Shown here piece after piece: positions 18,108 to 27,326 of a stretch of DNA of 27,857 nt. A program made the translations under genes and the position numbers. Numbering within the stretch: the stretch's first letter is position 1; each line of letters begins with the position of its first letter. The DNA is from a virus (lineage: Duplodnaviria > Heunggongvirae > Uroviricota > Caudoviricetes). The notes below the pieces were generated by a model. It saw only the letters and a list, made by a program, of their open reading frames with translations. It was not told the DNA's origin and did not search any database. Where the stretch lies: IMG/VR virus record IMGVR_UViG_2737471861_000021; one strand, 5' to 3'.

Positions 18108-20582
18108 ATGAGACAGGAATGTATACAGGCGGTTCAGCAGGCGGCGCAGCGCATGTTAACGGCGCGAGAAATACAGAACATTGAAGACCGCATTTATCGA
18201 AATATGCGCTCCATTGCTCGTGATGACCCGATGTCGTGGCGACAACTTTCCGAATCAGATCGGCTATATCGAGCAGCACAATTGGCATCTGAAGAATTAC
18301 AGCGAGAAGCGGCATTAAAGAAACGTCGTGTGGCTCTCACTATAGCCGCGCGTCAGAGATTGGATAAATTTATCAATAGCTATCAAGGGGCTGATGGGAA
18401 ACTTGGCGCTCTTAACCGTACTATAGCTTTTAATGCAGACGGTAAATCTAATTTCCTCTCTGTTGAATCCAGAACAAAAGCCACCCGTGATTATGCATTG
18501 AGTCAATTGCAGGAGGCATTCGAAGCAGTTGATCCTCGCTTTTTTGGTCTGTTTGAAGATGAAGCGGGCGTACGTGACCTGGTATATGAAATGCGGGGGC
18601 AAAATACTGGCAATGCTAAAGCAAGAAAAGGTGCTAAGGCGTGGAGAGAAGTTACAGAGCTGCTGCGCCGCCGGTTTAATGATGCTGGTGGGGACATTGG
18701 CTATCTCGAAAACTGGGGGATCCCTCAACATCATTCTATGGAAAAGGTTGGGGCGGTATCAAAGGATAAGTGGGTTAACGATGTTATAGGTAAGCTGGAT
18801 CGCAAATATTATACCCGAGCCGATGGACAACTGATGAACGATGCCGAGTTGTCTGCATTTCTTGGAGAGGCTTATAACACGATCGCTACTGGTGGGCTGA
18901 ATAAGCTTACTGATACCGGAATGCGAATTTCCGGCGCACGTGCTAACCGTGGTAATGCATCACGACAGATACATTTCAAAGATGCTGATTCCTATCTCCA
19001 ATATCAACAACTTTATGGCGATCGCTCTCTATGGGAAATCATGGTCGGTCACCTGGAAGGTATCAGTAAAGATATTGCTCTGGTGGAAACATATGGTCCA
19101 AACCCCGATCATGTTTTCCGCTCCCTTCTTGATCAGGTTAAGGCAGAAACGGCAACAGCTAACCCGAGTAAAACCGGTAAAGTCGAGCGGCTGGCGAACA
19201 ACACAGAGAATCTGTACAACTTTATTTCCGGAAAGACACAGCCTGTAGCGAATCCGCACATCGCGCGATGGTCTGACAATATCCGCAACTGGCTGGTTGC
19301 CAGCAGACTCGGATCCGCGTTGCTGTCATCGTTCTCTGATCTTGGAACCATGTATCTGTCTGCGAAGGTGACCAACCTTCCGATGAACCAGTTATTCCGC
19401 AACCAGCTTGAAGCTATGGACCCAACGAACCGTACTGAGCTTGCGCGGGCGCGCCGCGCTGGTCTGGCGATGGAATCTCTACTTGGCAGCGTTAACCGCT
19501 GGGCGATGGATAATATGGGGCCGTCTGTGTCTCGTTGGGCTGCAACGGCGGTAATGCGTGCCAGTGGGCTTACAGCATGGTCAGATGCGCACAAGCGCGC
19601 CTATGGCGTAACCATGATGGGAAGCCTGGGAGAAGTAGTGTCACGGACACCAGACCTTCGTAGCCTCGATGACTCTGATTTTCGTATCCTGAAAAGCAAA
19701 GGGATTACTGACACAGACTGGAGCGTATGGAAGTTGGCGCAACAGGAGGACTGGGGGAACGGTAATAATACGATGCTGACACCGGAAAGCATTATGCGTA
19801 TCCCTGATTCAGCAGTTAAACATCTTGGTGAGCCTGAACGCGTGAAATTTGAGGCAATGCGTAAACTGCTCGGTGCCGTAACTGAAGAAGTTGATATGGC
19901 TGTTATTACACCGGGAGCACGTGAGCAACTGATAACCGGTTCTGGTATTCAGCGTGGAACATGGAAAGGTGAATTAACGAGAAGTGTTTTCCTGTTTAAA
20001 TCGTTCCCTATCTCGGTTGTTATGCGTCACTGGTCACGCGCTATGGGTATGCCGTCTGCTGGTGGGCGTGCGGCATATATTGCGACGTTTATTGCCAGTA
20101 CGACCATTCTTGGCGCTTTGTCGCAGCAACTTAACGACCTTGCGTCTGGTCGTAATCCTCGAGAGATGACAGGAGAAGATGCCGCAAAATTCTGGCTTGG
20201 TGCTCTACTGAAAGGTGGTGGCCTTGGCCTTTACGGTGATTTTTTGTTGTCAGATCACACGAGGTACGGAAGCGGTGCGCTGGCATCAATGCTTGGTCCG
20301 GTAGCCGGTCTGGTTGATGACGTAGTGAAGATAGCTCAGGGCATACCACTAAATGCTGTGGAAGGGAAGAACGAGCAGACTGGTGGTGATCTGGTGAAAC
20401 TTGGGAAAGGGCTGATGCCAGGTGCGAATCTCTGGTACTTGAAGGCAGCTCTTGATCACATGATCTTTAACCAGATGCAGGAGTATTTTTCACCAGGCTA
20501 TTTGCGTAAAATGGAGCAACGTTCGAAGAAAGAGTTTAACCAGACATACTGGTGGCGACCACAGGATGTCACTCCGCAATAA
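18108..20582 (+). CDS. Large internal core / ejection protein
   Basis: 824-aa ORF, last large gene of the core block, with hydrophobic segments near the C-terminus. Confidence 0.6.
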   Translation: MRQECIQAVQQAAQRMLTAREIQNIEDRIYRNMRSIARDDPMSWRQLSESDRLYRAAQLASEELQREAALKKRRVALTIAARQRLDKFINSYQGADGKLGALNRTIAFNADGKSNFLSVESRTKATRDYALSQLQEAFEAVDPRFFGLFEDEAGVRDLVYEMRGQNTGNAKARKGAKAWREVTELLRRRFNDAGGDIGYLENWGIPQHHSMEKVGAVSKDKWVNDVIGKLDRKYYTRADGQLMNDAELSAFLGEAYNTIATGGLNKLTDTGMRISGARANRGNASRQIHFKDADSYLQYQQLYGDRSLWEIMVGHLEGISKDIALVETYGPNPDHVFRSLLDQVKAETATANPSKTGKVERLANNTENLYNFISGKTQPVANPHIARWSDNIRNWLVASRLGSALLSSFSDLGTMYLSAKVTNLPMNQLFRNQLEAMDPTNRTELARARRAGLAMESLLGSVNRWAMDNMGPSVSRWAATAVMRASGLTAWSDAHKRAYGVTMMGSLGEVVSRTPDLRSLDDSDFRILKSKGITDTDWSVWKLAQQEDWGNGNNTMLTPESIMRIPDSAVKHLGEPERVKFEAMRKLLGAVTEEVDMAVITPGAREQLITGSGIQRGTWKGELTRSVFLFKSFPISVVMRHWSRAMGMPSAGGRAAYIATFIASTTILGALSQQLNDLASGRNPREMTGEDAAKFWLGALLKGGGLGLYGDFLLSDHTRYGSGALASMLGPVAGLVDDVVKIAQGIPLNAVEGKNEQTGGDLVKLGKGLMPGANLWYLKAALDHMIFNQMQEYFSPGYLRKMEQRSKKEFNQTYWWRPQDVTPQ

Positions 20583-20591
20583 GGATGAGAA

Positions 20592-20732
20592 ATGATTGCT
20601 TTTATTCTTGTTGTATTTGTGCTTGTTGCCCTTGGCGTTATGAATCGTAAATGTATCATTGAAGACGGTGAATTTGCTGTAGCAGTTGTTTTGATATTAT
20701 CTGGTGTAGCAGGGTACATAGGTTTGTCATAG
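20592..20732 (+). CDS. Small hydrophobic membrane protein (46 aa)
   Basis: Not in the ORF track (too short). ATG at 20592, nine nt after the upstream stop with an AAGGATGAG RBS. Translation MIAFILVVFVLVALGVMNRKCIIEDGEFAVAVVLILSGVAGYIGLS has two predicted TM segments. Confidence 0.4.
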   Translation: MIAFILVVFVLVALGVMNRKCIIEDGEFAVAVVLILSGVAGYIGLS

Positions 20733-20738
20733 CTTGAG

Positions 20739-20752
20739 TGTGACATGTCACA
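20739..20752. repeat. Palindrome TGTGACATGTCACA, copy 3 of 3 (perfect 14-bp palindrome)
   Basis: Seen directly; lies between the small membrane ORF stop and the GC hairpin. Confidence 0.7.
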
Positions 20753-20768
20753 GGCCGCTTTCGCGGCC
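20753..20768. terminator. GC-rich hairpin between convergent transcription units
   Basis: GGCCGC-TTTC-GCGGCC stem-loop between the + strand core operon and the minus-strand small gene; U-tract is weak. Confidence 0.35.
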
Positions 20769-20775
20769 CTTAAAT

Positions 20776-21033
20776 TTACCGGATTTGTTTTCGTAATTGT
20801 TCGGCACAATAGTCGAGATGTGTTTGCAGATCCTGCATAGACATCTGTGAGCTGGTGACGTAGTTAATCAGTGCAGTCAGTTCGGCAAGTGGGCCATCGA
20901 CATTAAATCCATCCTTATCGAGATCCCGGAGTAATTTCATCAAGTGCGATCCCTCCACCAGTGACCTGACGCCTCCCGGCGTGTGAATCCTTTCGGTAAA
21001 TCCGTCTTCCAGTGGATAGTGATACTGCTGCAT
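20776..21033 (-). CDS. Small SOS-regulated protein of unknown function (85 aa), reverse-oriented inside the tail module
   Basis: Internal ATG of track ORF 20776..21156 with a GGAGAA RBS. A LexA box lies 22-37 nt upstream of this start. Translation MQQYHYPLEDGFTERIHTPGGVRSLVEGSHLMKLLRDLDKDGFNVDGPLAELTALINYVTSSQMSMQDLQTHLDYCAEQLRKQIR. Confidence 0.5.
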   Translation of the reverse strand: MQQYHYPLEDGFTERIHTPGGVRSLVEGSHLMKLLRDLDKDGFNVDGPLAELTALINYVTSSQMSMQDLQTHLDYCAEQLRKQIR

Positions 21034-21054
21034 CTTATCTTCTCCATGCAATAA

Positions 21055-21070
21055 CTGTATATTTATACAG
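21055..21070 (-). promoter_or_regulatory. LexA (SOS) box
   Basis: CTGTATATTTATACAG is a perfect CTGT-N8-ACAG with an AT-rich spacer. The extended 20-mer AACTGTATATTTATACAGTA closely matches the E. coli consensus TACTGTATATATATACAGTA. It sits just upstream of the minus-strand small gene. Confidence 0.7.
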
Positions 21071-21228
21071 TAGCAAATAATTTGTTTGCTATCCAGCACG
21101 TTTTGCAAATTACCCGAAAGGTAATATCTATTCATATTCACAGTCTTTCTATCCATATGTGGTTTTTCAGGTAATAGAATAACCAGATATGCGGCGCAAC
21201 GGGTGCTGCGACTATCTGGAGATTTAAC

Positions 21229-23418
21229 ATGACGGTCTCAACCGAAGTTGACCACAACGAATACACAGGCAATGGCGTTACGACTTCATTCCCTTATACC
21301 TTTAGGGTTTTCAATGAATCTGATCTGGTAGTGCAGGTGGTTGACCTTGACGAAAATATCGCTGTACTGGCTCTTGATACTGATTACACTGTCACTGGGG
21401 CTGGAGGATATAACGGCGGTAATGTAATTCTGTCGAAGGCGTTAGCTAACGGTTACCAGATTTCTATATCACGAGAGCTCCCGGTTACGCAGGAAACTGA
21501 TTTGCGTAATCAGGGTAAGTTCTTTGCAGAAGTGCATGAGGATGCTTTTGATAAGCTAACGATGCTGATCCAGCAGGTTCGAAGTTGGTTCAGTTTGGCT
21601 CTGCGTAAGCCATCATTTGTTGCTAATTATTATGATGCCTTGAACAATTACATCCGCAATTTACGTGATCCTTCAAGACCTCAAGATGCAGCCACTAAAA
21701 ATTATGTTGATACACAGCTCAGTACTAGCCTCAGGTGCACATTGCGCGTTCAGGAGCAGATTCCGATACTTCCTGACGCTGCCTCCCGTGAAAACAAGAT
21801 GCTTGCTTTCGATAACAATGGTAACCCCATTGTTGTACTTCCTCCATCTGGCTCTGCTTCTGATGTATTGATCGAATTAGCTAAACCAGCAGGCGCAGGG
21901 ATGATTGGTACCAAATCAGGAGATACTGTTCAAGATACGTTGGATGAACTCAATCATAAATCAGGTTATGATAATTCTGATATTTCTTTGTATGGATATA
22001 TATATGGTAGTGGAGAGGACGCTAAGCCTTATGTTCTTGCAGCCATAGGTAAAACAGGGGTTGCGCATATCAGCGGTGATACCACATTATCAAGATTTGA
22101 CTGGCCCCAAGGTGCAAGGATTACCGGAAAAGCAACGATCACATACACAAGGCTACCAAACGTTCCATGTGAACTTGATAGTGAAATACCTGTAAACCAT
22201 TCACTAATGAAAGCTGTATATGTTCATGAGGTATTTGATATCTGCGATATGTTACAAATAAAAACAGCAGGATTTAATACTTTAATTCATTATGGTCAGG
22301 CATGGCGTGATGGTGGAGACATGGAAAAAGCATGTAACGCAGCGGAAGCAATAGGATTGCGTTTGATTTTGGGCGGGCCAATATACGGACAGACAGATAC
22401 GCCATCTTCAGAACTGGACGATAGAGATTGTGTTATAGGATATTATCTATTTGATGAACCTCAAAACCATTCTATATCGGCTTCTGCCCAGGCTACTAGA
22501 ATAAACGCGTTCAAGGCTTTCACTAAAAAGTCGCTATGTATAGCTGATAATGGCATCTTTGCTTTTGATTCACCTACTATTCCGTCAGGGTACGATGGTG
22601 TTGGCTACGATTACATATTCATTGACGCTTACGCATACGCTAATCGAGATTTCGCCACGAATAAAAGAGCGGCAGTGCTATGTTGGGCGGAAATGAAATA
22701 CAAATCCCCAAATTCTAAGCTGATCCCTTGCTTGGGTATGTTTAGCGAACCTTCTGAGTTTTCAGATAAGTCAAAGCAAATATCTTTTGCAAGGAAATTC
22801 TTTGGGATGGGGCCCGGTGATTATGCCGCCTTTGCTTGGGAGAGCAATCTTATTATTGGCACATTCAAAGACATAACTAATGATTCTGACTTTTATAATG
22901 AAGTTTTAAGTTATAATTGCATAACAGAACAAAAACCATACAAAACAGATGTTTATGTGTTTTACACAGATAGAATGGGTGGGGCTATGCAGTTGTACAA
23001 TGACAAGTACAGTTCTGCCGATGTCACACCATTCCAGACTATCAATGCTGGGAGCGCACAAGGTGAGCGTAACACCACATTCAAAAAGGGTGGTATCGCG
23101 GCAAGAAACACCGGAGGCGTGTTTGCTACGAGGATGAAGAACCACGGGTACGTGGCTGTTGAGCTGTATTATTTTAACGGTGCAGATACCGCAAATACTA
23201 CAGCATCAATAACAACTTGCATTGACGATTTTTACACAAACACCCCGCAGCTTACGTTCACGCTCTCAACTACACAAAACGCCTGGATAAACTCTGTGGA
23301 AACAACACCTAATCTCGGTGTTGGTATAAAGATTATCCCAAGCCAATCTTACCAATATAGGTGGAAATTCATATATGGTGGCATAGTTGATTGCTCATGG
23401 AGAGGTGATTCATTTTAA
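21229..23418 (+). CDS. Tailspike / receptor-binding protein
   Basis: 729-aa ORF with a GGAGA RBS. N-terminus 'MTVSTEVDHNEYTGNGVTTSFPYTFRVF...' matches what I recall of the epsilon15-family tailspike head-binding domain. The distal two-thirds is AT-rich and divergent. Confidence 0.8.
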   Translation: MTVSTEVDHNEYTGNGVTTSFPYTFRVFNESDLVVQVVDLDENIAVLALDTDYTVTGAGGYNGGNVILSKALANGYQISISRELPVTQETDLRNQGKFFAEVHEDAFDKLTMLIQQVRSWFSLALRKPSFVANYYDALNNYIRNLRDPSRPQDAATKNYVDTQLSTSLRCTLRVQEQIPILPDAASRENKMLAFDNNGNPIVVLPPSGSASDVLIELAKPAGAGMIGTKSGDTVQDTLDELNHKSGYDNSDISLYGYIYGSGEDAKPYVLAAIGKTGVAHISGDTTLSRFDWPQGARITGKATITYTRLPNVPCELDSEIPVNHSLMKAVYVHEVFDICDMLQIKTAGFNTLIHYGQAWRDGGDMEKACNAAEAIGLRLILGGPIYGQTDTPSSELDDRDCVIGYYLFDEPQNHSISASAQATRINAFKAFTKKSLCIADNGIFAFDSPTIPSGYDGVGYDYIFIDAYAYANRDFATNKRAAVLCWAEMKYKSPNSKLIPCLGMFSEPSEFSDKSKQISFARKFFGMGPGDYAAFAWESNLIIGTFKDITNDSDFYNEVLSYNCITEQKPYKTDVYVFYTDRMGGAMQLYNDKYSSADVTPFQTINAGSAQGERNTTFKKGGIAARNTGGVFATRMKNHGYVAVELYYFNGADTANTTASITTCIDDFYTNTPQLTFTLSTTQNAWINSVETTPNLGVGIKIIPSQSYQYRWKFIYGGIVDCSWRGDSF

Positions 23419-23466
23419 ATGAAAGCGCATTAATCACTACATCCTTCGTGATTAATGCGCTAAAAT

Positions 23467-24585
23467 TTATAATTTTATTCCTTTTCCGTACTTAATTAGT
23501 GGTCGTTCAATAAAAGAAAATGTAAGTGATGATAAAACACACAGTGCTACGAATAGAATTGTTATCATTGGGAGTGAGATATTTAGGTTGTTAATATCAT
23601 ATTTATCTTTAATAAAGGCAAATGAAGGATAGAAAACAACCCCTTGTAAAAGGTAAATGCTGTAAGAGCACTCCCCCAAACGAGTAAATCCCTTTATATT
23701 CAATATACCAAACAAGCTTGCGCCTTTAGCCACGCAAAGCATAAACACTGTGACTATTATCCACGGTCTAGTGCTGTTAAGTGATGGATTTAACAGTACG
23801 AATATAGTCACAGATGCTAACAGCATGAGGTCAGATGTTTTTTTTGATAATGAAATTCTGCATGATAACTCCTTAGATAGGATACCACAGGCGAAAGCAG
23901 AATAATACCAATATGATGCATCTGTAAATGATGGTAGAAAATACATACAAACAAACATAATACCAATTGAAGCTTCAAGTGGCTTGGAACGTAAAAAATA
24001 AATGATTGGTAAAGAGAAGTAGAATCCCCATTCCCACTTTATTGTCCATGTTACACCAGACAACACCAATACAGAATTATTGAATCCATTTATATTAGGT
24101 TTTATGTCAAATACACTTGCGTCAAACCATTTCAACAAATCATCCAAACTAATATTGTTGTGGTTTGTTGACATTAAAATAATATATGATACAGCAATGA
24201 ATGATGAAAGATATGTCATCGGTACGATTCTAAAAAATCTATCTTTATATAAGTTTATCCAGTCAATATTTTTTGATTTACGAATCTTTCCCCAGAAAAG
24301 AAAAGCTGTAATTGAAAAGAAAATCGCTACGCCAAATTTCCCTATTGAATAAATAAAATCAGAATGAGTAGTCCATTTATTTATTGTAAAATAATTAATA
24401 AAATAGTCTGAGTGATGGAACACAACCATGGATGCAAGAATATATCTTAGACCATCAAGATTCCGCTCCCTTGAGTAATCATGATCTTTCCCGTCTATGT
24501 AAGAAAAAACATTAGAGCTAAATAAAAGACCACATATAAAAATTGAACATCCAACCCACAAGTATATGATAACAGAGTCAGTCAT
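23467..24585 (-). CDS. Integral-membrane acyltransferase (acyltransferase family 3; O-antigen acetyltransferase-like)
   Basis: 372-aa polytopic membrane protein with 'LDGLRYILASMVVFHH' near the N-terminus and 'SYSIYLLQGVVFYP...FIERP' near the C-terminus, both typical of Acyltransferase_3 (Oac/OafA-like). Strongly AT-rich relative to the rest of the prophage. Confidence 0.75.
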   Translation of the reverse strand: MTDSVIIYLWVGCSIFICGLLFSSNVFSYIDGKDHDYSRERNLDGLRYILASMVVFHHSDYFINYFTINKWTTHSDFIYSIGKFGVAIFFSITAFLFWGKIRKSKNIDWINLYKDRFFRIVPMTYLSSFIAVSYIILMSTNHNNISLDDLLKWFDASVFDIKPNINGFNNSVLVLSGVTWTIKWEWGFYFSLPIIYFLRSKPLEASIGIMFVCMYFLPSFTDASYWYYSAFACGILSKELSCRISLSKKTSDLMLLASVTIFVLLNPSLNSTRPWIIVTVFMLCVAKGASLFGILNIKGFTRLGECSYSIYLLQGVVFYPSFAFIKDKYDINNLNISLPMITILFVALCVLSSLTFSFIERPLIKYGKGIKL

Positions 24586-24777
24586 TTTTAGTTTCCATAT
24601 TATATTCCAGTATTAGCTGCATGCAGAACCATTTTCCTATGGACGGCAGCATTGTATCACCCAGGGGGTAATTTCGGTAGGGGTATTCTTAGGTAATACA
24701 TATCCATATATGGTTTATTGTGTATGATGTACTCACCAACTAAGGGGGTTCTTTATGCACATTAAACGGTGGTCATA

Positions 24778-25182
24778 ATGGCGCAAATGTTAACCACGGA
24801 AACTATAAATCAGGGTCTTAGCATGAGCGCGCTGATGTCTGTGTTCGCTGGAGTACCGCCAGAGGTGGCTTTAGGAGCTTTGGCTGGGGCGGTAATTTTT
24901 GTTACCTCAGCGGTAGAGTATCACATCCGTCGCCGGGTGCTCCTGTCGATGCTCAGCTTTCTTTGCGGCCTTCTCTTTTACAAACCAGCAGCATCAATTC
25001 TTATCGGCATAGCCAGCCTGATCCCTACCATCACGCAGGACTCTTTTGAAAAAGGGATTGTTTTCTCTGCAGGCGCATTCGTGTCAGCAATTGTCGCTGT
25101 GCGTATTGGTATATGGCTCTATCACCGTTCCGATAATCCACGCGAGTTAATTCCGGGGAGAAAAGACGATGGTAACGTATGA
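24778..25182 (+). CDS. Holin-like membrane protein (class I-like, 3-4 TM)
   Basis: ATG at 24778 (track ORF 24769..25182). Several hydrophobic segments and a charged C-terminus; first gene of the lysis cassette. Confidence 0.5.
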   Translation: MAQMLTTETINQGLSMSALMSVFAGVPPEVALGALAGAVIFVTSAVEYHIRRRVLLSMLSFLCGLLFYKPAASILIGIASLIPTITQDSFEKGIVFSAGAFVSAIVAVRIGIWLYHRSDNPRELIPGRKDDGNV

Positions 25183-25477
25183 GTTTTTTTTGCTTATCAC
25201 CAATGCAGTTATTTGCACTGGCATAGCAATTCGCGTTGTCACATTCCGGCGTAACGGCTCTCAACACCGAAGGTGGGGAGGATGGCTTGCTTATTTCCTG
25301 ATTGTTGCTGCGGCCAGTATTCCTGTTCGTGTCGCCTATGCAATCTGGTTACGTACGCCAATGGCTGTGGATTTATCTGAGGTCATTATCAACGCTGTCA
25401 TGCTAACTGCGGTTATTAAAACGCGCGGTAACGTCGTTCAAATTTTCAAAGTATCGAGGTCTAAACATGGAGATTAA
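25169..25477 (+). CDS. Second small membrane protein of the lysis cassette (holin or antiholin-like)
   Basis: 102 aa with about three TM segments; overlaps the upstream gene and precedes the endolysin. Confidence 0.45.
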
Positions 25478-26096: not shown

Positions 26097-26590
26097 TCTG
26101 GGCATTCGTAAAAGCATACTGGAAACAGTTGCTTATCGTGGCAGTGCTTGCTGTTCTGGTCATATCAGGAGTGGTTGCCTGGAATATACACGGCAGTCGC
26201 CAGTACGATGCCGGGTATGCTCAGGCGAAGGAAGATCAGAAACAGGCTGATGATAAGTTAAGGTCACAGCGTGAGCAGGAGAAAACACAAATTGAACGTG
26301 AAGCACAATCCCGTATCGATGCGGCGCGTGCTGATGCTGAGTATGCTAATTCCGCTGCTGACAGCATGCGCGCCGAGCTTGACAAAACCAGGCGGCTCGC
26401 CGAACACTATACCGGATCTTTCCCCCCTGGCACGCCAGCCAGCAAGGTCATCGGTGTGCTCGCCGACATGCTTGAAGAAAGCAACCGAGTTTACAACGCA
26501 ACAGCAGCTGAGGCTGAAAAGTATCGTATCGCAGGGGAATTCTGCGAGCAGCAATACGATTCACTGAAGAAGCAAAAATCGTGGCACTGA
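26093..26590 (+). CDS. Rz: i-spanin (Rz-like)
   Basis: 165 aa with an N-terminal TM helix ([18 protein letters not shown]) and a charged coiled-coil-like periplasmic domain; directly follows the endolysin with an ATGA overlap. Confidence 0.7.
26319..26567 (+). CDS. Rz1: o-spanin lipoprotein (Rz1-like), embedded in the +1 frame of Rz
   Basis: Internal ATG of track ORF 26271..26567. Signal peptide [17 protein letters not shown] with an LTAC lipobox, followed by a Pro-rich mature region. Lies entirely within Rz in a different frame. Confidence 0.6.
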   Translation: MRRVLMLSMLIPLLTACAPSLTKPGGSPNTIPDLSPLARQPARSSVCSPTCLKKATEFTTQQQLRLKSIVSQGNSASSNTIH

Positions 26591-26716
26591 TTTCCGGTGA
26601 CGGTATATAAAACGGTACGGGAAAAGTTGAGGTTTGTAAAAGTGTTATCACTCAATTGGTTATGGTTGTCGTAAATAATTGAGTGGGAATGATTTTAATC
26701 CCTGCACTATGAATGA

Positions 26717-26749
26717 ACAAAACCCTCTGTTACTACAGAGGGTTTTTTA
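26717..26749. terminator. Strong bidirectional rho-independent terminator
   Basis: AAAA-CCCTCTGT-tact-ACAGAGGG-TTTTTT between the lysis operon (+) and the convergent envelope genes (-). A second hairpin, CTTCAAG-N9-CTTGAAG, lies at 26751-26773. Confidence 0.65.
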
Positions 26750-26786
26750 TCTTCAAGAATCATAGGCTTGAAGTTACTAACATCGA

Positions 26787-27326
26787 TTAATTAAACCAGC
26801 TGTCCGATTTGTTCTCTTCTGCTTTGCCCACGCTTTTCATCAGATCGCGACCGCCTTCAGTCATATTTCTGTTGGCGTCAGCTTCAGATTGCACCACATC
26901 GGTTTGCGCAGCTTTGTGCTTCAGTTCCTGATCGATAAATTCGTTTTCTCGCTTAACGCGGGCTTCTTCTTTTGCCAGCGCCAGTTTTTGTTTCTGAATC
27001 TCTAAGCTGCGTAGCTCATCTTCATAACTTTGATCGCGTTTTTTGTCCGCAGAGGCTTCGGCGTCCAGTTTATCCTGACGAGCTTTCTTATTTGCCGCTG
27101 CCGTTGCCGCTCTTTTGTTAGCGGCGGCCTGGGCATTTGCGCGACGTTGCTTCTCTTGCTGGATTTCCCTGTTGCGCTCCGCGACCCATTCGTCATGCTG
27201 CCTTTGCTCTTCATTTTTACCTTGCTGTTCAGCTTCTGCTACAGCAGAGAGTTGATCCTGCAATGATGAGGCGATAGCCGGATAGCTTAAGGAGGCCAAG
27301 ATGGCGCAAAGAAAAACTTTCTTCAT
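26787..27326 (-). CDS. Secreted/periplasmic coiled-coil protein, function unknown
   Basis: 179 aa with a signal peptide (MKKVFLCAILASLSYPAIASS) and a highly charged Ala/Lys/Glu/Gln-rich helical remainder; RBS present. Confidence 0.6.
   Translation of the reverse strand: MKKVFLCAILASLSYPAIASSLQDQLSAVAEAEQQGKNEEQRQHDEWVAERNREIQQEKQRRANAQAAANKRAATAAANKKARQDKLDAEASADKKRDQSYEDELRSLEIQKQKLALAKEEARVKRENEFIDQELKHKAAQTDVVQSEADANRNMTEGGRDLMKSVGKAEENKSDSWFN

What the first reader, a model, noticed from the sequence alone, without database searches (positions are those of the whole stretch)
21229..23418. Tailspike with a conserved head-binding N-terminus and an AT-rich, non-beta-helix-looking distal domain
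The first 150-200 residues look like the conserved particle-binding module of epsilon15-family tailspikes. The remainder is compositionally distinct (AT-rich DNA) and lacks obvious beta-helix repeat periodicity. Segments such as 'VIGYYLFDEPQNH' and 'YDYIFIDAYAYANRD' hint at a TIM-barrel-like glycosidase or an esterase. This looks like a horizontally swapped receptor-binding/depolymerase domain defining an unknown host O-antigen or capsule specificity.
Basis: partly seen in the sequence, partly recalled or inferred. Interest (0 to 1): 0.55.

Follow-up and report, generated by a model that had tools for sequence, protein, structure and literature searches.

The report
TIM-barrel tailspike of an O156-linked prophage
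This is the host-recognition spike of a phiV10/epsilon15-like E. coli prophage: its outer half is predicted to be a sugar-cutting TIM barrel instead of the usual beta-helix, and this rare, uncharacterised module is traded between unrelated phages and occurs almost only in E. coli of O-antigen type O156.

Summary
The ORF (21229-23418, +, 729 aa) is real. It is the tailspike of a phiV10/epsilon15-like prophage inserted next to yfgI.

- **Anchor:** residues 1-161 are the conserved epsilon15-type anchor. Its DNA matches 510 of 5426 complete E. coli genomes.
- **Distal module:** the part from about residue 222 matches only 8 genomes. It has no Pfam, NCBIfam or PDB sequence match.
- **Catalytic motif:** The canonical beta7 nucleophile is absent.
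- **Swapping:** the module is joined to at least six different anchor types. It was replaced here together with the adjacent O-antigen acyltransferase.
- **Host type:** seven of the 8 carrier genomes are among the 11 that have O156 wzy.
- **Internal mosaic:** compared with the O156:H25 prophage, this copy differs only in two ~60%-identity patches inside the distal module.
- **GC claim:** only partly true, because the whole gene is AT-rich.

This is a rare, uncharacterised variant of a known kind of protein.

The parts
21229..23418 (+). Tailspike gene, 729 aa plus stop codon
   Evidence: ORF. It is identical to P0001. PHROG 1640 'tail protein' matches at E 1.6e-150 over residues 1-279. It sits in the same slot as the phiV10 tail fibre gene p25.
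21229..21711 (+). Epsilon15/phiV10-type particle-binding anchor, residues 1-161
   Evidence: 88.8% DNA identity to phiV10 up to window 21711, where the homology stops. 82% identity to Salmonella phage VB_ST_E15. PDB 28lx tailspike Dpo31 matches residues 1-136 at E 4e-26. Matched in 510 of 5426 E. coli genomes.
21712..21891 (+). Second neck/linker module, residues 162-221
   Evidence: Shared with phage TL-2011b, which matches gene bases 1-660 at 88%. It matches residues 146-247 of the solved KN1 capsule depolymerase 9m4c. It is absent from phiV10.
21892..22005 (+). Junction and linker, residues 222-259. This is where the shared distal module begins.
   Evidence: BLASTP alignments to homologues with P22-type or Tail_spike_N anchors start at query residue 216-222. 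pLDDT is low here, 46-57.
22006..22194 (+). Remnant of a beta-helix (pectate-lyase-like) N-terminal cap, residues 260-322
   Evidence: In the model this is one helix plus three strands. The family profile for this region matches the 'DFGAxGDGxTDDT' cap of beta-helix tailspikes and GH55 enzymes (5m5z, 6e0v, 5js4, 3gq7). PF12708 profile positions 2-64 match just upstream of the barrel in P0088.
22195..22998 (+). Predicted (beta/alpha)8 barrel, residues 323-590. The putative glycosidase domain.
22453..22461 (+). D409-E410-P411 motif after strand beta4. E410 is the proposed general acid/base.
   Evidence: E410 is invariant and D409 is 99% conserved in 69 distant members. The motif aligns with N412-E413-P414 of E. 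coli beta-glucuronidase (hhalign, probability 67%).
22609..22632 (+). Strand beta6 motif D461...D466-A-Y468
   Evidence: D461 is invariant, Y468 is 99% conserved, and D466 is D or N in 64 of 69 members (D 52, N 12). The motif aligns with the 'FDVLCLNRY' segment of GUS, including its active-site Tyr.
22470..22975 (+). Recombinant patch 1, residues ~414-582: the second half of the barrel (the 'TIM_C' allele)
   Evidence: 53-62% DNA identity to the O156:H25 prophage of strain 13E0780, while the flanks are 98-100% identical. Discrete allele classes A, A', B and B' occur across homologues.
23023..23415 (+). C-terminal beta-sandwich, residues 599-729. Putative sugar-binding and/or trimerisation domain.
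   Evidence: All-beta in the model, pLDDT about 90. Foldseek co-aligns it with the CBM6 domain of GH5-CBM6 enzymes and with TNF/C1q-like jelly rolls.
23176..23300 (+). Recombinant patch 2, residues ~650-690, inside the beta-sandwich
   Evidence: 64% identity to the 13E0780 prophage over 23176-23275 and 82% over 23276-23375, between near-identical flanks (protein comparison).
23467..24585 (-). Convergent O-antigen acyltransferase gene (372 aa), part of the swapped specificity block
   Evidence: PF01757 at E 5.6e-23. PHROG 3333 'O-acetyltransferase'. It occupies the phiV10 oac slot but is unrelated to phiV10 Oac. It is 100% identical in DNA to five complete genomes and absent from the other 5421. 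GC is 0.321.

Best explanation
The gene encodes the tailspike of a temperate phiV10/epsilon15-like podovirus (Uetakevirus type).

Architecture: residues 1-161, plus a neck at 162-221, attach the spike to the tail. From about residue 222 a portable receptor module follows. It consists of a short remnant of a beta-helix cap, a (beta/alpha)8 barrel of the clan GH-A type, and a C-terminal beta-sandwich.

Proposed function: the barrel is an endoglycosidase that binds and cuts the host O-antigen. The most probable target is the O156 polysaccharide or a close variant of it. This lets the virion work its way down to the outer membrane, as beta-helix tailspikes do.

Proposed catalysis: E410, in the invariant D-E-P motif after beta4, is the general acid/base. 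The second catalytic group is not the canonical beta7 glutamate. It is either another conserved carboxylate (E538 after beta8, D466 on beta6, D440 on beta5, or E507 in the beta7 loop) or the substrate's own acetamido group assisted by D409.

The neighbouring acyltransferase, acquired in the same block, would modify the lysogen's O-antigen to stop superinfection, as phiV10 Oac does.

Shown: gene, anchor homology, module boundaries, predicted fold, conserved motifs, mosaicism, association with O156.

Inferred: enzymatic activity, catalytic roles, substrate, trimer formation, the function of the acyltransferase.
For: - **Context:** phiV10-like synteny and about 96% DNA identity over roughly 20 kb. 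The prophage ends next to yfgI/yfgH.
- **Sequence link to clan GH-A:** weak profile matches to GH2 GUS (E 0.005), GH157 and GH35. hhalign places DEP on the NEP motif of GUS.
- **Purifying selection on active-site-like positions:** E410 100%, D409 99%, Y468 99%, W537 91%, N350 88% in members only 19-30% identical overall.
- **Portability:** 55 clusters at 90% identity carry anchors PF09008, PF18668, PF03906 and PF27114. More distant members carry PF12571 and PF18454. The junction lies at residue 216-222.
- **Acyltransferase:** it lies in the phiV10 oac slot, which that record annotates as 'acetylates the host O-antigen; functions in superinfection immunity'. It co-occurs strictly with this tailspike.
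Against: - There is no biochemical or structural experiment on any family member.
- The model is a monomer and I could not inspect its coordinates, so the active-site geometry is untested.
- The canonical clan GH-A nucleophile position aligns with Leu/Val. The enzyme may therefore be mechanistically unusual, or inactive.
- The alignment to GUS has only 67% probability.
- The serotype of this window's own host (GCA_000819015.1) is unknown. Its half-barrel allele (type A) is only 55-58% identical to the B allele and 75-78% identical to the A' alleles seen in the O156 lysogens.
- The lytic relatives PE3-1 and JSS1 are recorded as infecting 'E. coli O153'.
- One carrier genome, OkiPb01688, has an O108 cluster.
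Confidence: 0.68

Rival explanations
1. The barrel is a catalytically dead lectin. The spike binds the O-antigen without cutting it, as a tail fibre would.
For: The canonical beta7 nucleophile of clan GH-A is replaced by Leu/Val across the family. No CAZy-type Pfam family matches.
Against: D409-E410-P411, Y468 and W537 are invariant or nearly so in members that share only about 20% identity overall. That pattern is what conserved catalysis would produce. Several other carboxylates at strand C-termini are also conserved: D/E440, D/N466, E/D538. A distant structural relative, Acinetobacter phage Aci07, forms halos (PMC11058221).
Confidence: 0.12
2. It is a polysaccharide lyase, as the PE3-1 homologue is annotated.
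For: PE3-1 gp18 is labelled 'lyase' in GenBank and UniProt. The family keeps a pectate-lyase-like cap motif.
Against: The pectate-lyase similarity covers only the roughly 60-residue cap (profile positions 2-64 of 213). The body is a TIM barrel whose structural neighbours are hydrolases and transglycosidases. To my knowledge no polysaccharide lyase family has this fold. The label therefore looks like annotation carried over from the cap.
Confidence: 0.04
3. It is a carbohydrate esterase (deacetylase) spike like G7C gp63.1, as the first reader offered as an alternative.
For: Foldseek lists a two-domain acetyl-mannan esterase (6hh9) and a phage SGNH protein at E about 1e-6. An acyltransferase gene lies next door.
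Confidence: 0.04
4. The substrate is a capsule or another surface glycan, or an O-antigen other than O156, rather than O156 itself.
For: The host serotype for this exact allele is unknown. PE3-1 and JSS1 hosts are recorded as O153. OkiPb01688 is O108. The half-barrel alleles are only about 55% identical to each other. Distant relatives in Acinetobacter phages are annotated as capsule depolymerases.
Against: Seven of 8 carrier genomes are O156, across two phage lineages and several strains. Both the A' and the B alleles occur in O156 hosts. This copy carries a 100% identical acyltransferase and 98-100% identical flanks compared with the O156:H25 prophage. OkiPb01688 carries the same prophage next to yfgI, with a 100% identical acyltransferase, but a different O-antigen cluster. 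That fits the O-cluster switching described for this lineage (PMC5359238).
Confidence: 0.12

Closest known systems
Tailspikes of epsilon15 (gp20) and phiV10 (p25), genus Uetakevirus
   Same: Same N-terminal anchor: 82-89% DNA identity over residues 1-161. Same genome slot, between the p24-like gene and the oac/holin genes. Same pairing with a convergent O-antigen acyltransferase.
   Different: Homology to phiV10 stops at residue 161. The distal part here is a predicted TIM barrel. A close epsilon15-type record annotates its own spike as a right-handed beta-helix protein. The acyltransferase is not an orthologue of phiV10 Oac.
Beta-helix endoglycosidase tailspikes (P22, Sf6, HK620, CBA120 TSPs, Klebsiella depolymerases such as K2-2)
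   Same: Same role and modular plan: anchor, enzymatic receptor-binding body, C-terminal domain. The family retains the N-terminal cap motif of these beta-helices. Some copies even use the P22 head-binding anchor PF09008.
   Different: There are no beta-helix rungs after the cap. The catalytic body is a (beta/alpha)8 barrel. All eight solved Klebsiella depolymerases reviewed in PMC11652154, and K2-2 itself (PMC10936425), are beta-helices.
Clan GH-A glycoside hydrolases (GH164, GH42, GH2, GH5, GH35)
   Different: Sequence identity is 7-14%. No Pfam GH family matches. The motif is D-E-P rather than N-E-P. No acidic residue occupies the canonical beta7 nucleophile position. The barrel is fused to phage anchors and a beta-helix cap.
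PE3-1 gp18 'lyase' and JSS1 (T7-like Kayfunavirus); Acinetobacter phage Aci07 gp45
   Same: PE3-1 and JSS1 carry the same distal module: 68% identity, TM-score 0.82, on a T7-type anchor. Aci07 gp45 has the same predicted fold at 18% identity (TM-score 0.76). It was noted bioinformatically as a SUPERFAMILY (trans)glycosidase domain in a halo-forming phage.
   Different: The anchors and the phage lifestyle (lytic) differ. PE3-1 has the B-type half-barrel allele, 94% identical to that of the O156:H25 prophage and 55% identical to this copy. None of these proteins has been characterised biochemically in the papers I could read.
TIM-barrel class in computational depolymerase surveys (DepoScope; Klebsiella prophage survey)
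   Same: The fold class has been recognised in phage receptor-binding proteins: 10 of 984 hits (1.0%) in INPHARED phages (PMC11326577) and 7.5% in Klebsiella prophages (PMC12491483).
   Different: Those surveys give fold labels only. The class was left out of DepoScope training for lack of examples. No substrate, mechanism or family definition was given, and none concerns an E. coli O-antigen.

Membership tests
Epsilon15/phiV10-type (Uetakevirus) tailspike | N-terminal particle-binding domain homologous to epsilon15 gp20 / phiV10 p25 | tested here: met
   88.8% DNA identity to phiV10 and 82% to an epsilon15-type phage over residues 1-161. PHROG 1640 at E 1.6e-150.
Epsilon15/phiV10-type (Uetakevirus) tailspike | Position in the genome: after the large virion protein genes and before oac, the holins and the endolysin | tested here: met
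   Colinear with phiV10 p20-p30.
Epsilon15/phiV10-type (Uetakevirus) tailspike | Distal receptor-binding body homologous to that of epsilon15 or phiV10 | tested here: not met
   There is no DNA homology to phiV10 between window 21712 and 24654. The predicted fold is a TIM barrel.
Right-handed beta-helix (pectate-lyase-like) depolymerases | Stack of parallel beta-helix rungs forming the catalytic body | tested here: not met
Right-handed beta-helix (pectate-lyase-like) depolymerases | N-terminal cap with the 'DFGAxGDGxTDDT' motif | tested here: inconclusive
   The motif is clear in the family profile and in distant members. In this protein it is degenerate ('DISLYGYIYGSGEDAKPYVLAAI') and Pfam PF12708 does not match.
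Clan GH-A glycoside hydrolases | (beta/alpha)8 barrel catalytic domain | tested here: met
Clan GH-A glycoside hydrolases | General acid/base Glu at the end of beta4 in an N-E-P motif | tested here: inconclusive
   An invariant D-E-P follows beta4 and aligns with N412-E413-P414 of GUS. The alignment probability is 67%, and Asp replaces Asn.
Clan GH-A glycoside hydrolases | Nucleophile Glu at the end of beta7 | tested here: not met
   GUS E504 aligns with L502. Positions 501-506 carry no Asp or Glu in any of the 46 close homologues. An acid at 507/508 in the following loop is common (45 of 46 close homologues; at most 36 of 69 distant members) but not universal.
Clan GH-A glycoside hydrolases | Significant sequence match to a curated GH family model | tested here: not met
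   Pfam and NCBIfam find nothing on the distal part. Among 69 distant members there is one weak GH99 match (E 0.009). I could not run dbCAN.
SGNH / carbohydrate esterase tailspikes | SGNH or alpha/beta-hydrolase fold and motifs | tested here: not met
   There are no family matches. The structural matches to esterases are weak.
AT3 (Acyl_transf_3) O-antigen acyltransferases (neighbouring gene) | PF01757 integral-membrane acyltransferase domain | tested here: met
   PF01757 at E 5.6e-23 over residues 42-351. PHROG 3333 'O-acetyltransferase' at E 2.8e-43. Its activity on O156 is not testable with these tools.

The most novel reading that the evidence does not exclude
The family is a new glycoside hydrolase family built on a GH-A-like barrel that has lost the beta7 nucleophile. 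It would work either through a different carboxylate pair or by substrate assistance: a D409-E410 pair plus Y468, as in the hexosaminidase-type enzymes.

In addition, the ~170-residue 'half-barrel' and the ~40-residue sandwich patches would be exchangeable specificity cassettes. They would let O156-targeting phages keep up with O-acetylation variants created by the acyltransferases of rival prophages. This would be an arms race fought by recombination inside an active site rather than by exchange of whole domains.
Probability: 0.2. Interest if true: 0.7.

Novelty: new variant of a known kind. Interest (0 to 1): 0.5.

Why it matters
The structural and mechanistic knowledge of tailspikes that I found rests on beta-helices. 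A TIM-barrel spike with an inferred substrate (E. coli O156, a serogroup of cattle STEC) would give that rare fold class its first testable enzyme-substrate pair. It could also define a new glycoside hydrolase family.

The locus also shows receptor specificity being rebuilt at three nested scales:
- the whole distal module together with its acyltransferase;
- the module moved between six or more anchor types;
- sub-domain patches inside the catalytic barrel.

This matters for predicting host range from sequence and for engineering phages or depolymerases against STEC. It also shows that the 'lyase' label on the PE3-1 homologue probably comes from a 60-residue vestigial cap.

Tried and rejected
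- **Family and sequence searches on the distal part:** Pfam, NCBIfam and PDB sequence searches found nothing.
- **Unavailable library:** afdb50 fold search was not on the machine.
- **False lead:** the Foldseek match to the Klebsiella K2-2 tailspike looked like a solved relative, but the paper shows a nine-rung beta-helix, and the TM-score of 0.23 marks the match as weak.
- **Collections:** a scan of GTDB species-representative genomes found no relative. IMG/VR gave only 6 loci.
- **Literature searches that found nothing:** PE3-1 with O153, TIM-barrel tailspikes, and the source assembly accession. The O156 structure paper (PMID 27177202) is not held, so I could not relate the O156 linkages to a cleavage site.
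- **Promoter/terminator scan of 20500-24900:** nothing above chance.
- **The '38.4 kb phage' in PMC5359238:** I considered that this phage, listed as differing between O156:H25 and O182:H25 isolates, might be this prophage, but I could not establish it.
- **D461 as catalytic residue:** rejected. It lies at the N-terminal end of beta6 and aligns with a conserved structural Asp of GUS.
Full report
**What is there.** The window is the late region of a phiV10/epsilon15-like (Uetakevirus) prophage of E. coli.
- About 20 kb is roughly 96% identical to phiV10 and colinear with it.
- phiV10 homology ends at window 26694. The host genes yfgI and yfgH follow.
- The source is contig JWZJ01000023.1 of assembly GCA_000819015.1.
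- The ORF at 21229-23418 (+) encodes 729 aa. It occupies the slot of the phiV10 tail fibre/tailspike gene p25.
- It is followed, in convergent orientation, by an Acyl_transf_3 gene (23467-24585) where phiV10 has oac. Two holins and a GH19 endolysin come next.

The conserved N-terminus is real.
- DNA homology to phiV10 runs to window 21711 (residue 161) at 88.8% and then stops until 24655.
- An epsilon15-type Salmonella phage matches gene bases 1-484 at 82%, and TL-2011b matches bases 1-660.
- The solved tailspike Dpo31 (28lx) matches residues 1-136. The KN1 depolymerase (9m4c) matches residues 135-228.
- In 5426 complete E. coli genomes the 5' part matches in 510, but the part beyond gene base ~750 matches in only 8.

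The composition claim is only partly right.

| Region | GC |
|---|---|
| Phage backbone | 0.507 (1.5-kb windows: sd 0.013) |
| Distal part, residues 222-729 | 0.411 |
| Anchor, residues 1-161 | 0.435 |
| Last 159 residues | 0.436 |
| Acyltransferase gene | 0.321 |

The gene as a whole is AT-rich. The step inside it is small.

**Fold of the distal part.** Pfam, NCBIfam and PDB sequence searches find nothing beyond residue ~280.

I built an alignment of 46 homologues and obtained an AlphaFold2 model of residues 205-729 with mean pLDDT 86.6 and pTM 0.83. In full-length numbering it shows:
- a poorly ordered linker (205-259);
- a helix and three strands (260-322);
- eight strand-helix units (beta1 328-332, beta2 351-354, beta3 378-381, beta4 402-406, beta5 435-440, beta6 462-467, beta7 497-503, beta8 532-535);
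- an all-beta sandwich (599-729).

**The cap remnant and the 'lyase' label.** A profile of 69 more distant members matches the 'DFGAxGDGxTDDT' cap of beta-helix proteins in the ~60 residues before the barrel. Matches include GH55, Phi92 gp150, phiAB6, phi29 gp12 and Sf6. Pfam PF12708 matches 18 of the 69 members. In the one match I located, it covers only profile positions 2-64 of 213, just upstream of the barrel.

So the family looks like a beta-helix spike whose body was replaced by a barrel after the cap. This probably explains why the PE3-1 homologue is annotated 'lyase'.

**Conserved residues and mechanism.** Across members only 19-30% identical to the query, the following residues are conserved:

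| Residue | Conservation |
|---|---|
| E410 | invariant |
| D461 | invariant |
| Q421 | invariant |
| G348 | invariant |
| D409 | 99% |
| Y468 | 99% |
| P411 | 96% |
| W537 | 91% |
| N350 | 88% |
| Y355 | 84% |
| K/R328 | conserved |
| D/E440 | conserved |
| D/N466 | conserved |
| E/D538 | conserved |

A profile comparison with E. coli beta-glucuronidase (GH2; probability 67%) gives three pairings:
- D409-E410-P411 aligns with N412-E413-P414, the acid/base motif.
- 'YDYIFIDAY' aligns with 'FDVLCLNRY', which contains the active-site Tyr.
- The nucleophile E504 aligns with L502.

No close homologue has an acid at positions 501-506. I therefore propose E410 as the general acid/base and leave the second group open. 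Candidates are E538, D466, D440 and E507, or assistance by a substrate acetamido group with D409. The last is an inference from the D-E plus Tyr pattern of hexosaminidase-type enzymes, which I recall from general knowledge and did not test.

**Horizontal exchange at three scales.**

1. *Relative to phiV10.* The replaced block is 21712-24654, which is the distal spike plus the acyltransferase. That acyltransferase is not detectably related to phiV10 Oac by BLASTP.
2. *Between anchors.* The distal module from residue 216-222 onward is joined to several anchor types: P22 head-binding (PF09008), Tail_spike_N (PF18668), T7 tail fibre (PF03906), PF27114, tail-collar (PF12571), Mtd_N (PF18454) and the epsilon15 type. 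The module is rare:
   - 55 clusters at 90% identity;
   - 105 of the best 150 representatives at 50% identity;
   - 10 of 50,697 phage records;
   - 6 IMG/VR loci.
3. *Inside the module.* Against the prophage of STEC O156:H25 strain 13E0780, this window is 98-100% identical from 21676 to 25475. Two patches are the exception: 53-62% identity over 22470-22975 (residues ~414-582, the beta5-beta8 half of the barrel, starting right after DEPQ), and 64-82% over 23176-23375, lowest at 23176-23275 (residues ~650-690, in the sandwich). Across homologues the half-barrel falls into discrete alleles, which assort independently of the other blocks:
   - A: this copy, P0009, P0013;
   - A': P0016/H1 and P0019, 75-78% identical to A;
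   - B: 13E0780, PSJ-29, PE3-1, about 55% identical to A;
   - B': P0031.

- OkiPb01680, 01683 and 01700 and 13E0780 are published as O156:H25 (PMC12613899, PMC5427212).
- PSJ-29 carries the module on a P22-like prophage. Its O-antigen cluster is annotated with O156 wzx and wzy and a pyruvyl transferase. This fits the pyruvylated galactose of O156 (PMC7685785).
- O156 wzy occurs in only 11 of 5426 genomes. Seven of the eight carriers are among them. The hypergeometric P is 1e-19, or 2e-12 when the clone is counted once.
- The eighth carrier, OkiPb01688, has the same prophage but an O108 cluster. This fits the O-cluster switching described for this lineage (PMC5359238).
- Both A' (H1) and B alleles occur in O156 hosts.
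- The acyltransferase of this window is 100% identical in DNA to that of the four O156:H25 strains and OkiPb01688. It occurs in no other complete genome.

I therefore infer that this spike also targets O156 or a close variant of it. Two facts do not fit. PE3-1 and JSS1 are recorded on 'E. coli O153' although their half-barrel is 94% identical to that of the O156:H25 prophage. The serotype of the source strain is also unknown.

**Comparison with what is known.** TIM-barrel folds among phage depolymerases are known from computational surveys: 1.0% of hits in isolated phages, and 7.5% in Klebsiella prophages (PMC11326577, PMC12491483). A distant structural relative, Aci07 gp45, was flagged as a (trans)glycosidase domain in a halo-forming phage (PMC11058221). 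The eight solved Klebsiella depolymerases reviewed in PMC11652154 are all beta-helices, and Foldseek against the PDB found no solved phage spike with this fold.

The protein is a member of the epsilon15/phiV10 tailspike group by its anchor and genome position, but not by its distal body. It has the fold of clan GH-A but fails the nucleophile test and matches no curated GH model. I therefore describe it as working like a GH-A-type endoglycosidase without filing it in that clan.

**Verdict.** This is a rare, uncharacterised TIM-barrel variant of the tailspike depolymerase. It is linked by strong association to the O156 O-antigen, it was acquired together with an acyltransferase, and it is itself mosaic. 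Its activity, mechanism and exact substrate remain inferred.

Noticed in passing
window 23467-24585 (- strand): The Acyl_transf_3 gene is the most AT-rich stretch measured (GC 0.32). It sits in the phiV10 oac slot but is unrelated to phiV10 Oac. It is 100% identical in DNA in exactly five of 5426 complete E. coli genomes (four O156:H25 strains and their O108 relative) and always lies next to this tailspike.
   Followed up: partly
L017 3992-5779 (E. coli H1, NZ_CP010160.1): In the O156 strain H1, a P22-like prophage carries the same distal module (A' allele). It is followed by a different, convergent 595-aa acyltransferase. The pairing of tailspike and acyltransferase therefore recurs with non-homologous partners (28% identity over about 90 residues).
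   Followed up: partly
L016 (OkiPb01688, NZ_AP042535.1 2289627-2302573): This strain carries the same prophage, tailspike and acyltransferase as the O156:H25 strains, but its O-antigen cluster is annotated O108 (legionaminic/neuraminic-acid-type genes). That suggests an O-antigen cluster switch after lysogeny, which would leave the prophage mismatched to its host's surface.
   Followed up: partly
L001 (phage PE3-1 gp18, KJ748011.1 33473-35659): The T7-like phages PE3-1 and JSS1 are recorded as infecting E. coli O153. Their half-barrel allele is nevertheless 94% identical in protein to that of the O156:H25 prophage. Either the host typing, or the assumption that this region sets serogroup specificity, needs checking. 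The gp18 'lyase' label appears to come from the vestigial cap.
   Followed up: partly
window 26176-26675: The 3' half of the Rz-like spanin region is only 43-74% identical to the 13E0780 prophage, while both flanks are 96-100% identical. This is another small mosaic patch, in the lysis cassette just inside the prophage end.
   Followed up: no
window 26579-26787: phiV10 homology ends at 26694, just before yfgI (26787-27326, - strand). In phiV10 the integrase follows this point. The right attachment site therefore lies here, and the integrase must be at the other prophage end, outside the window.
   Followed up: partly
window 3000-27857: A megablast search of the phage collection listed 64 Synechococcus phage records among the 151 records matching this E. 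coli prophage segment. I did not find out which part matches or why.
   Followed up: no
window 20776-21156 (- strand): The mechanical 126-aa ORF is probably over-extended. The phiV10 p24 homologue and the gene call on the source contig are 85 aa (20776-21033). This leaves an intergenic region of about 195 bp upstream of the tailspike gene, in which no promoter-like site was found.
   Followed up: no
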